Part shown: piece by piece, positions 9,899-11,008 of the stretch
Numbering within the stretch: the stretch's first letter is position 1
Layout: the number at the start of each line of letters is the position of its first letter
Source: a virus
Taxonomy: Duplodnaviria > Caudoviricetes
Length of the DNA stretch: 53,775 bases
Virus record (IMG/VR): IMGVR_UViG_3300024975_000025
Coordinates: 1 to 53,775 of that record
Direction: 5' to 3' (one strand)
Translations under genes and position numbers: made by a program
Notes under the pieces: generated by a model
Told to the model about the DNA's origin: nothing
The model's database searches: none
Seen by the model: only the letters and a program-made list of their open reading frames with translations

Positions 9899-10724
9899 TG
9901 CCGGCCTCCCGCGCCTCTTCGGCGGCCGGGGCAGGCGCCTTCAGTGCGTTGATGGCGGTTTCCTGCTCGGCGGTAAGTTCGCCCTTCGACTTGGCGAGCG
10001 CCAGGATGTCGGCCGCGGTCTTGAGGCCGGCGCTGACCGCCTTGTTCCAGCGGGCGAATTGCTCGGCGAACTTGTCGGCCGGCCAGACGGCGGGGGCGGT
10101 CTGCTGCGGCTCCGGCTGCCCCTCGCCCACCAGCGAGTCACGCAGCACAGCGTCCAGGTCTTCCAGGTCCTGCCCGAACATGTCGCTGCAGGCCGTGACG
10201 TTCAGGACCATGCCGATCTTGGCGCGCTTCTCGGCCATCTTTAGCACGGTGTTGGCAACGTCGGCCGGCTCGGTCCGAACCTGCTTCGTCTCCCAGTTCT
10301 TGCTGTACTTCACGCGGCGCAGGGCGGGCGGCGTGGCGTCGAACTCCTTGTCGTGGACGGCGCGACGCCACTTGTACTTCTCCTCGCCGCTGCTGGCTTC
10401 GCCGACGCAGCTGCCGAGGGTCACGCCGGAAAGCTGGTGCACGCCGCGGCAGGTCACGCGGTAGCGCACCACATCGGCCGTGCTCAGGTCTTCGATGCTG
10501 AACTCCGGCGCGATGCGGAAGGTCATGCACAGAACGTCGGCGCCGGGCTGGAACAGCGTGGGCTTGTCGGTGCCGGGGATCTTGCCGTAGTGCAGCTCGG
10601 GCTTCATGACGGCGCGCATCACGTCTTGCACGACCATTGCGTGCTGGACAACCTCGGAGGCCGACAGCCGACCTGTGGACTGGACGATGCCGCGCTGCGG
10701 CAGGTGCTCGACAACCGCATTCAT
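9885..10724 (-). CDS. Putative recombination (ssDNA-annealing) protein
   Basis: HYGKIPGTDKPTL motif; upstream of YqaJ; function inferred from position. Confidence 0.5.
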   Translation of the reverse strand: MNAVVEHLPQRGIVQSTGRLSASEVVQHAMVVQDVMRAVMKPELHYGKIPGTDKPTLFQPGADVLCMTFRIAPEFSIEDLSTADVVRYRVTCRGVHQLSGVTLGSCVGEASSGEEKYKWRRAVHDKEFDATPPALRRVKYSKNWETKQVRTEPADVANTVLKMAEKRAKIGMVLNVTACSDMFGQDLEDLDAVLRDSLVGEGQPEPQQTAPAVWPADKFAEQFARWNKAVSAGLKTAADILALAKSKGELTAEQETAINALKAPAPAAEEAREAGNDPQ

Positions 10725-11008
10725 GCCGGCTCTCCCTGCTTCGGAGAAGCCTTGGCAACCAGCTTGCGGTTGACGTAGCTGATAACGTCGCCAACGGTGG
10801 GCCAGTTCTCGTCGCCGTCGTCGACCATGAAGCCGTACTCGTCCTCAATGGCCATCGCCAGCTCGATGTGGTCGAGCTCGTCGGCGCGGAGGTCGGCGAT
10901 GAGCTTCGACTCGGGCTTCACGGCTTCGGGCAGTGCACCCAGTTGTGCTGCGACGATGCGCTTGACGACATCGTCTACGCGGTCGCCTTCAATGCGTTCG
11001 GTGTTCAT
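10721..11008 (-). CDS. Acyl carrier protein homologue with DSL->DEL substitution
   Basis: VKRIVAAQLG...DLRADELDHIELAMAIEDEYG...TVGDVISYV aligns with AcpP; GGAGA RBS. Confidence 0.88.
   Translation of the reverse strand: MNTERIEGDRVDDVVKRIVAAQLGALPEAVKPESKLIADLRADELDHIELAMAIEDEYGFMVDDGDENWPTVGDVISYVNRKLVAKASPKQGEPA

What the first reader, a model, noticed from the sequence alone, without database searches (positions are those of the whole stretch)
10721..11008. Phage ACP mimic with the phosphopantetheine Ser replaced by Glu
Seen: an AcpP-like sequence where DLGADSLD becomes DLRADELD (GAG codon at 10877-10879), with a good RBS and coupling to the next gene. Known: this Ser is required for acyl carriage, and ACP partners include AcpS, Fab enzymes, LpxA, SpoT, MukB and LuxI synthases. 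Inference: a non-loadable decoy expressed early from PL that titrates an ACP-dependent host function, possibly AHL synthesis given the LuxR module, or an ACP-dependent defence protein.
Basis: partly seen in the sequence, partly recalled or inferred. Interest (0 to 1): 0.72.

Follow-up and report, generated by a model that had tools for sequence, protein, structure and literature searches.

The report
Phage acyl carrier look-alike without serine
A prophage carries a small, well-conserved copy of the bacterial acyl carrier protein whose cofactor-holding serine is replaced by glutamate, so it cannot carry fatty acids and most likely works by binding another protein, still unidentified.

Summary
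Window 10721-11008 (minus strand) encodes a 95-aa AcpP-like protein. It has a GGAG ribosome site, and its stop overlaps the next gene's ATG (ATGA). Glu44 (GAG, 10877-10879) aligns without gaps to the phosphopantetheine serine of solved ACPs.

The change is not a one-off error. In the whole family I could recover (16 clusters), the site is Glu in 9, Asp in 3 and Ser in 4. In the tight clade of 8, seven are Glu/Asp; only the nearest relative has Ser, apparently a reversion. The fold is ACP, and the acidic docking helix II is invariant.

The gene lies in the leftward early operon. It sits directly upstream of a Rad52-fold annealing protein, an HNH insert and a RecE-like exonuclease. ACP-like genes recur upstream of this exonuclease type in 7 of 60 other viral contigs.

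My best reading (about 0.4) is a cofactor-free ACP mimic that docks on a host ACP client. The rival (about 0.25) is an accessory of the recombination module. No link to LuxR or AHL was found. The binding test could not be run. This scan had noted serine-less phage ACPs on other DNA.

The parts
10721..11008 (-). ACP-like gene, 95 aa (P0001), pI 4.4, net charge about -10
   Evidence: Translation. ACP homology. AF2 model plus Foldseek hits to AcpP structures. Charge and GC3 of 0.79.
10877..10879 (-). GAG codon for Glu44, at the place of the phosphopantetheine-attachment Ser
   Evidence: Sequence. Gap-free alignments to three solved ACPs.
11014..11017 (-). GGAG Shine-Dalgarno-like motif, 5 nt before the ATG
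   Evidence: Read directly.
10721..10724 (-). ATGA overlap: stop of the ACP-like gene and start of the next gene
   Evidence: Such 4-base overlaps are also seen between the upstream genes (11348/11351, 11782/11785), so this one is not specific.
9885..10724 (-). Probable single-strand annealing protein (279 aa, P0162, phrog_10048), Rad52-like fold plus a C-terminal domain shared with other annealing proteins
   Evidence: PHROG; no Pfam hit. AF2 pLDDT 76. The Foldseek top 10 are all human RAD52, best E 1.3e-3. VIA-align gives RAD52 Z 9.1 over 125 residues, Mgm101 Z 7.7 and phage 80alpha Sak Z 6.0. The same position next to the RecE-like gene is held by ERF or RecT proteins elsewhere.
9344..9898 (-). 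HNH endonuclease inserted between the annealing protein and exonuclease genes; lower GC3 (0.70) than its neighbours (0.86-0.90)
   Evidence: Pfam HNH_3 at 1.7e-15 and phrog_99. GC3.
7512..9347 (-). RecE-like exonuclease (YqaJ domain plus a long C-terminal region); the ATG at 9347 is taken as start, and the longest ORF starts at GTG 9482
   Evidence: Pfam YqaJ, and phrog_7655 at E=2.1e-163.
11020..11133 (-). Possible 37-aa hydrophobic peptide ORF that fills the gap upstream of the ACP-like gene; its GTG overlaps the stop of 11130..11351
   Evidence: Sequence, translation, no PHROG hit. Existence not shown.

Best explanation
The gene encodes a folded ACP look-alike that has no cofactor and works by protein binding, not by carrying acyl chains. 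It keeps the acidic helix II with which AcpP docks on its client enzymes. An acidic residue sits where the serine-phosphodiester of holo-ACP would be. I propose that it occupies the basic ACP-docking site of a host ACP client and blocks or titrates it early after induction or infection. Likely clients are AcpS or the glycerol-3-phosphate acyltransferase step, which unmodified ACP is known to inhibit. That would make it a host take-over gene carried in the early-left operon, as lambda carries kil next to gam-bet-exo (lambda gene order recalled).

Shown here: the gene, the fold, the loss of Ser, its conservation, the conserved docking helix, and the operon position. Inferred: that it binds a host client, which client that is, and the effect on the cell.
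For: - ACP homology and fold. PDB phmmer returns ACPs only, best E=1.7e-15. The AF2 model has pLDDT 78 and matches AcpP chains at TM (by target) 0.87-0.93 and rmsd about 1.0-1.5 A.
- Ser is replaced in 12 of 16 family clusters: Glu 9, Asp 3, Ser 4. The close clade of 8 has SH-aLRT 97, and 7 of its 8 members carry Glu or Asp.
- The replacement is almost always acidic. Among 116 ACP rows in the tree, the 16 non-Ser rows are E 10, D 4, R 1, A 1. By the genetic code, Ser to Glu needs at least two base changes.
- The helix II positions D43, L45, D46, E49, E55 and D56 are invariant in all 14 aligned family members, which are only 41-83% identical to the window protein. These columns are identical in solved ACPs.
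- No host-type ACP lacked Ser. None did among the 80 genome loci or among the 18 host rows in the tree. The 80 unclassified metagenome loci all had Ser too.
- GC3 of 0.79 is in line with the neighbouring phage genes, so this is not a fresh import.
Against: - Four of 16 family members keep Ser, and so do 6 of the 7 ACP-like genes found upstream of RecE-like exonucleases. Being non-loadable is therefore not universal in phage ACPs of this setting.
- The gene's recurrent place next to recombination genes fits the rival reading.
- No binding was tested: the complex prediction never ran.
- The host is unknown, since the record is a provirus only. The presence of the proposed client was therefore not checked.
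- No DNA of family members was available, so there is no dN/dS for the family itself.
- One other serine-less phage ACP (L284, Arg) also has Leu where the window protein has Glu49 and gives dN/dS of 0.67-0.75. Some such copies may be decaying.
Confidence: 0.4

Rival explanations
1. It is an accessory of the phage recombination module. One form: the ACP-fold protein is a subunit or chaperone of the annealing protein or RecE-like exonuclease. The other form: it is a small acidic inhibitor of a host DNA-end nuclease or DNA-binding defence, sitting where lambda has gam.
For: - It lies directly upstream of, and overlaps by ATGA, a Rad52-fold annealing protein that is followed by a RecE-like exonuclease.
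- hmmsearch with the family profile found ACP-like ORFs 2.4-3.9 kb upstream, on the same strand, in 7 of 60 viral loci that carry this exonuclease type. These loci have three different annealing-protein types.
- Other serine-less phage ACPs also sit in DNA-metabolism clusters. L249 (Asp) is 3 kb upstream of an Erf protein. L241 (Glu) lies between a primase-helicase and an exonuclease. L266 (Ala) is in the early region of a Mu-like phage.
- Equal contig lengths suggest that P0008 and P0201 share one 7230-base contig, and P0009 and P0182 one 4085-base contig.
- Precedents: ACP helps TnsD form the Tn7 target complex (PMC11406308, passage read). AcpP chains are present in PDB 9gm6-9gma, and that paper names two of these entries, 9GM9 and 9GMA, as MukBEF capture-state structures. 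T7 gp5.9 is a small acidic DNA mimic that blocks RecBCD and MukBEF (PMC7617805, passages read).
Against: - The gene is sporadic. The annealing protein has 2193 homologues at E<=1e-10, against 16 clusters for the ACP family.
- 53 of 60 RecE-type loci lack any ACP. So does the closest one, L268, whose annealing protein is 73% identical.
- None of the 39 cultured-phage records with this exonuclease is among the 19 records with an ACP match.
- Early operons nearly always hold recombination genes, so nearness is weak evidence.
- 4-base overlaps are common in this operon.
- There is no sequence match to Gam: Pfam gave PP-binding only.
- It is not obvious why a phage-specific partner would keep AcpP's own docking residues invariant.
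Confidence: 0.25
2. One reading: a decoy that blocks the LuxI-type AHL synthase, working together with the prophage's LuxR-type receptor.
For: The prophage does encode a LuxR-type protein with an autoinducer-binding domain and a GerE domain at 14983-15741. AHL synthases use acyl-ACP (recalled).
Against: The LuxR gene is 4 kb away, and a HicA/HicB pair plus a zinc-ribbon gene on the other strand lie between. It has no tblastn match (E<=1e-5) in any other fetched locus, including all other ACP-bearing phage loci. Nothing ties the two genes together beyond being in one prophage.
Confidence: 0.03
3. It is a decaying or neutral remnant of a phage acpP auxiliary metabolic gene, with no function of its own.
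For: Prophage acpP genes are usually read as lipid-metabolism auxiliary genes (PMC8224337, passages read). One serine-less relative (L284) looks relaxed, with dN/dS of 0.67-0.75.
Against: - The frame is intact in every family member.
- 40 of the 95 residues of the window protein sit in invariant columns among 8 proteins that are 66-83% identical to it.
- The predicted fold is confident.
- The replacement is restricted to Glu or Asp.
- The serine-less L249 against its Ser sister L295 gives dN/dS of 0.21.
Confidence: 0.07

Closest known systems
Bacterial housekeeping acyl carrier protein AcpP (Pfam PF00550, TIGR00517)
   Same: Same fold, same length class, and the same acidic helix II. It is 33-46% identical to solved ACPs over about 72-75 aligned columns.
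   Different: - Glu in place of the phosphopantetheine Ser.
- Below every NCBIfam ACP cut-off.
- About 10 extra N-terminal residues.
- A family-specific DDGDENW loop where no helix III is predicted.
- A VNRKL...P..G.PA C-terminal tail.
- It sits in a phage recombination operon.
Phage-encoded ACPs annotated as auxiliary metabolic genes (PHROG 5934; prophage acpP of Rhodobacteraceae, PMC8224337)
   Same: A small ACP homologue carried by a phage or prophage. It matches phrog_5934 at E=8.2e-13.
   Different: Those are read as working carriers. In the examples I looked at (Erythrobacter phage R6L, Sinorhizobium phage HMSP1-Susan, and most IMG/VR loci) they keep Ser. This family mostly does not.
Serine-less phage ACP look-alikes noted earlier in this scan (Ackermannviridae with Glu/Asp; N4-like marine phages with Gln)
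   Same: An ACP fold in a phage, the carrier Ser lost, and often replaced by Glu or Asp (AI notes, not checked here).
   Different: Different phage groups and no detectable close kinship. My word-based look-up by sequence found no look-alike stretch. This one is in a temperate phage beside recombination genes.
Unmodified (apo) ACP as a growth inhibitor in E. coli
   Same: An ACP without cofactor that acts by binding, reported to inhibit glycerol-3-phosphate acyltransferase (PMC3896788).
   Different: That is an overproduction artefact of the host's own protein. Here the cofactor-free state is fixed genetically, and the site carries an acidic residue.
Small acidic phage inhibitors next to recombination genes (lambda Gam, recalled; T7 gp5.9, PMC7617805)
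   Same: Small, acidic, early-expressed. Lambda gam lies just upstream of the annealing protein and exonuclease genes (recalled).
   Different: No sequence or fold likeness to these proteins was found. Pfam and Foldseek gave ACPs only.

Membership tests
Acyl carrier protein (PF00550 / TIGR00517) | Sequence match above the curated family threshold | tested here: inconclusive
   Pfam PP-binding scores 27.2 bits against a cut-off of 20.8, so it is met. All 13 NCBIfam ACP models that matched are below their cut-offs, for example TIGR00517 at 59.5 vs 70.45 and NF002148 at 68.6 vs 71.
Acyl carrier protein (PF00550 / TIGR00517) | Helical ACP fold | tested here: met
   AF2 pLDDT 78 with helices at 11-23, 44-58 and 72-87. 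Foldseek against AcpP chains gives TM by target 0.87-0.93 and rmsd 1.0-1.5 A.
Acyl carrier protein (PF00550 / TIGR00517) | Conserved Ser of the DSL motif that receives 4'-phosphopantetheine | tested here: not met
   Glu44 aligns to that Ser in three gap-free alignments. In the family the site is E 9, D 3, S 4 across 16 clusters.
Acyl carrier protein (PF00550 / TIGR00517) | Acidic recognition helix II | tested here: met
   D43, D46, E49, E55 and D56 are invariant in 14 family members and identical to the solved ACPs aligned.
Acyl carrier protein (PF00550 / TIGR00517) | Acyl carriage / modification by AcpS | not testable with these tools
   Needs mass spectrometry of the expressed protein. The absence of the acceptor Ser predicts no modification.
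Lambda Gam-type host-nuclease inhibitor | Position just upstream of the annealing protein and exonuclease genes in the early-left operon | tested here: met
   Gene order. The lambda order itself is recalled.
Lambda Gam-type host-nuclease inhibitor | Sequence or fold likeness to Gam or another known DNA-mimic inhibitor | tested here: not met
   Pfam reports PP-binding only. The Foldseek matches shown are all carrier proteins.
Lambda Gam-type host-nuclease inhibitor | Binding and inhibition of a host end-processing nuclease | not testable with these tools
   Needs a biochemical or genetic assay.

The most novel reading that the evidence does not exclude
Phages have repeatedly turned the acyl carrier protein into a cofactor-free adaptor. 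An acidic residue stands in for the serine-phosphate of holo-ACP. In temperate phages, this adaptor works with the recombination module. It would do so either as a dedicated subunit of the annealing protein/RecE-like exonuclease pair, as host ACP serves Tn7 TnsD and sits in MukBEF, or as a new kind of inhibitor of host DNA-end nucleases or SMC-type defences.
Probability: 0.2. Interest if true: 0.8.

Novelty: new variant of a known kind. Interest (0 to 1): 0.55.

Why it matters
ACP is one of the most connected proteins in bacteria. A viral copy that keeps the docking face but can never be loaded would be a natural probe for ACP's protein-binding roles.

If it blocks a host ACP client, it is a new kind of phage take-over factor, and it points to a druggable interface. 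If it serves the recombination module, it would add a component to phage recombination systems that are used for genome engineering in hosts other than E. coli.

My full-text searches found no description of serine-less phage ACPs. The same theme has turned up on unrelated phages in this scan.

Tried and rejected
- **Complex prediction** of the ACP-like protein with the neighbouring annealing protein. I handed it in unchanged many times. No result exists, so binding is untested.
- **Family members in context.** The genome-contig scan and the metagenome scan were swamped by ordinary Ser-type ACPs. Two viral scans and a degenerate DNA pattern for the family's C-terminal motif (0 matches) found no family member. 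A regex over all loci found only the window's own copy.
- **Search of 401 genomes** of the family of an Acidovorax genome with the family profile at E<=1e-26: 0 matches. This means 'not found in those searched'.
- **RecE-like protein as a single query** in viral contigs found nothing. An alignment of three worked.
- **Gene-conversion idea for P0002** (Ser, 83% identical). Six of its 16 differences fall in a 14-residue window around the site, but that clustering is not significant (p about 0.26). I keep only 'apparent reversion' from the tree.
- **The 105-aa extension of P0028** shows no likeness to the window's upstream gene.
- **The ESM Atlas look-up** gave only ACP-like clusters.
- **The promoter scan** found nothing.
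- **Sharpe & Craig 1998** is not held. It is cited only through the review.

Full report
**1. What is there**

The window is a complete IMG/VR provirus record of 53,775 bases with 65.5% G+C. On the minus strand, 10721..11008 encodes a 95-aa protein, P0001.
- A GGAG motif lies 5 nt before the ATG.
- The TGA stop overlaps the ATG of the next gene as ATGA.
- GC3 is 0.79, similar to the neighbouring genes.
- The protein is acidic, with pI 4.4 and net charge about -10.

**2. It is an ACP homologue with Glu at the serine site**

- phmmer against all PDB sequences returns acyl carrier proteins only, best 2ehs at E=1.7e-15.
- The three printed alignments are gap-free across the motif and place DLRADELD on DLGADSLD.
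- Pfam PP-binding is above its cut-off, 27.2 against 20.8 bits.
- PHROG 5934 'acyl carrier protein' matches at 8.2e-13.
- All 13 NCBIfam ACP models that matched score below their cut-offs.
- An AlphaFold2 model built on 14 family sequences has pLDDT 78. It superposes on AcpP chains at TM by target 0.87-0.93 and rmsd about 1.0-1.5 A.

**3. The loss of serine is conserved**

The word-indexed search of 5.8 billion clusters found 7 relatives of 64-83% identity. The exhaustive profile search of 1.84 billion representatives added more distant members. A second profile search added P0283. In that last search the family scores 113 bits or more, and ordinary ACPs score 98 or less.

The family is marked by an N-terminal extension, a DDGDENW-type loop and a VNRKL...P..G.PA tail. 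In all I have 16 clusters, and the serine site reads as follows (tally):

| Residue at the site | Clusters | Members |
|---|---|---|
| Glu | 9 | P0001, 3, 4, 5, 7, 8, 25, 28, 283 |
| Asp | 3 | P0006, 9, 16 |
| Ser | 4 | P0002, 13, 21, 33 |

I built a maximum-likelihood tree of 116 ACPs: 15 family rows, 83 viral rows and 18 host rows sampled from 67.
- The 8 closest family members form a clade with SH-aLRT 97.
- Seven of these 8 carry Glu or Asp.
- P0002, with Ser, is sister to the window protein with support 99, so its Ser looks like a reversion.
- At least 8 changes between Ser and non-Ser are needed on the whole tree.
- The 16 non-Ser rows are E 10, D 4, R 1, A 1.
- None of the 18 host rows lacks Ser.

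The tree rests on 91 columns, and most deep forks are unresolved.

Among the loci fetched with ACP patterns:
- 104 of 105 had Ser.
- 156 of 159 had Ser.
- The exceptions were all viral contigs: L096 E, L241 E, L249 D, L266 A.

**4. What stays conserved**

In the 14-sequence alignment, D43, L45, D46, E49, E55 and D56 of helix II are invariant. So are T71, V72, V79 and R81. The helix II columns are the same residues as in the solved ACPs. From general knowledge of AcpP, this is the face that docks on client enzymes.

**5. Surroundings in the window**

Reading leftward from about 12.2-12.5 kb, the minus strand carries:
- three small genes of unknown function;
- a possible 37-aa hydrophobic ORF;
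- the ACP-like gene;
- a 279-aa protein (phrog_10048);
- an HNH endonuclease;
- a 611-656-aa RecE-like exonuclease (YqaJ domain; phrog_7655 at 2.1e-163);
- further early genes, then an excisionase-like gene and two integrases.

The 279-aa protein has no Pfam match. Its model, with pLDDT 76, finds human RAD52 in all of the top 10 Foldseek rows, best E 1.3e-3. VIA-align gives RAD52 at Z 9.1 over 125 residues, Mgm101 at Z 7.7 and the phage 80alpha Sak annealing protein at Z 6.0.

I fetched 60 viral loci with the RecE-like protein.
- In most of them my probes matched a gene just upstream of the exonuclease. By Pfam, representatives of these genes are ERF or RecT proteins, and a further type has no Pfam family. 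In about half a dozen loci no probe matched.
- These different proteins share a C-terminal stretch of about 50 residues.

I therefore read 9885..10724 as the annealing partner of the exonuclease. This rests on fold and position; it has not been demonstrated.

**6. Do phage ACPs go with this module?**

A profile search of all ORFs in the 60 loci found ACP-like ORFs in 7. All lie 2.4-3.9 kb upstream on the same strand. Six have Ser, and one (L284) has Arg. Two of the 7 lie on contigs already fetched as L248 and L229/L095.

Other serine-less phage ACPs sit in DNA-metabolism clusters:
- L249 (Asp) lies downstream of a cI-like repressor and 3 kb upstream of an Erf protein.
- L241 (Glu) lies between a primase-helicase and an exonuclease.
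- L266 (Ala) lies in the early region of a Mu-like phage.

Among 104 viral ACP loci, 8 loci (6 distinct contigs) had an annealing protein or exonuclease match within the flanks.

Evidence against a tight link:
- 53 of 60 loci have no ACP.
- The closest module (L268, annealing protein 73% identical) lacks it.
- The annealing protein family has 2193 members at E<=1e-10.
- None of the 39 cultured-phage records with the exonuclease is among the 19 records with an ACP match.

The gene is therefore a sporadic accessory of early operons.

**7. Selection**

I had no DNA for the family itself. Pairwise dN/dS on related phage ACPs gave:

| Pair | dN/dS |
|---|---|
| L295 (Ser) vs L249 (Asp) | 0.21 |
| L311 vs L318 | 0.24 |
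| L281 or L310 (Ser) vs L284 (Arg) | 0.67-0.75 |

L284 also has Leu where the window protein has Glu49.

**8. Mechanism**

The protein cannot be loaded, but it keeps the ACP docking face. My preferred reading is a cofactor-free ACP mimic that occupies the ACP site of a host client (confidence 0.4).
- The near-exclusive choice of Glu or Asp suggests selection for a negative charge where holo-ACP carries its phosphodiester. This is inference.
- A review reports that apo-ACP inhibits glycerol-3-phosphate acyltransferase and growth more strongly than holo-ACP. The same review reports that SpoT does not bind apo-ACP (PMC3896788, passages).

The rival reading is a role in or beside the recombination module (0.25). 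It has precedents:
- ACP assists Tn7 TnsD (PMC11406308, passage).
- AcpP chains are present in PDB 9gm6-9gma; the paper names 9GM9 and 9GMA as MukBEF capture-state structures.
- The acidic T7 gp5.9 blocks RecBCD and MukBEF (PMC7617805, passages).

The AHL idea has no support, because the LuxR gene recurs in no other locus.

**9. Novelty and limits**

Full-text searches found no paper on serine-less phage ACPs. One paper treats prophage acpP as a lipid auxiliary gene (PMC8224337, passages). Earlier notes of this scan describe serine-less ACPs in Ackermannviridae and N4-like phages (unchecked). The theme therefore recurs, but this family and its setting are separate.

Limits:
- The host is unknown. 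Only one relative (P0025) is named, from a Roseateles MAG.
- The complex prediction never ran.
- The gene context of family members other than the window is known only from two matches of contig length.

Noticed in passing
window 14983-15741 (-): The prophage encodes a LuxR-type protein with an autoinducer-binding domain (PF03472) and a GerE DNA-binding domain. It looks like a phage copy of a quorum-sensing receptor.
   Followed up: partly
window 13692-14431 (+): A HicA toxin / HicB antitoxin pair sits between the early-left operon and the LuxR gene.
   Followed up: no
window 9344-9898 (-): An HNH endonuclease gene is wedged between the annealing protein and exonuclease genes. It overlaps the first by 14 bases and ends right before the second. 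Its GC3 is lower (0.70 against 0.86-0.90), as for a mobile homing-type insert. HNH genes sit at comparable places in L248, L268, L300 and L302.
   Followed up: partly
L268-L327 (60 viral loci), about 150 bases before the RecE-like gene: Annealing proteins of different families (ERF, RecT, the L229 type, the Rad52-like phrog_10048 type) share a C-terminal stretch of about 50 residues wherever they precede this RecE-like exonuclease. This suggests a swappable core on a common exonuclease-docking tail.
   Followed up: partly
L229 7085-7363; L248 5291-5578; most of L268-L327: A KTSC-domain gene (PF13619) recurs close to the annealing protein / RecE-like pair in most loci. Its function is unknown.
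   Followed up: no
window 11020-11133 and 11130-11351 (-): Two small ORFs with hydrophobic C-terminal stretches (37 and 73 aa) lie just upstream of the ACP-like gene. The first starts at a GTG that overlaps the stop of the second. They are possibly small membrane peptides of the early operon.
   Followed up: no
window 1-2288 (-): Two tyrosine integrase genes lie in tandem (1-1053 and 1263-2288), with an excisionase-like gene (1032-1253) between them at the left end of the provirus.
   Followed up: no
window 6377-6760 (-) and L249 2301-2624 (+): The same unknown family (phrog_1273) occurs in the early operon of the window and in that of L249, the phage whose ACP has Asp at the serine site.
   Followed up: no
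L329 3456-4420 (Erythrobacter phage vB_EliS_R6L): In this cultured phage a Ser-type ACP gene overlaps by 4 bases a 228-aa gene that is annotated as hypothetical. The product looked RusA-like to me, but I ran no search on it.
   Followed up: no
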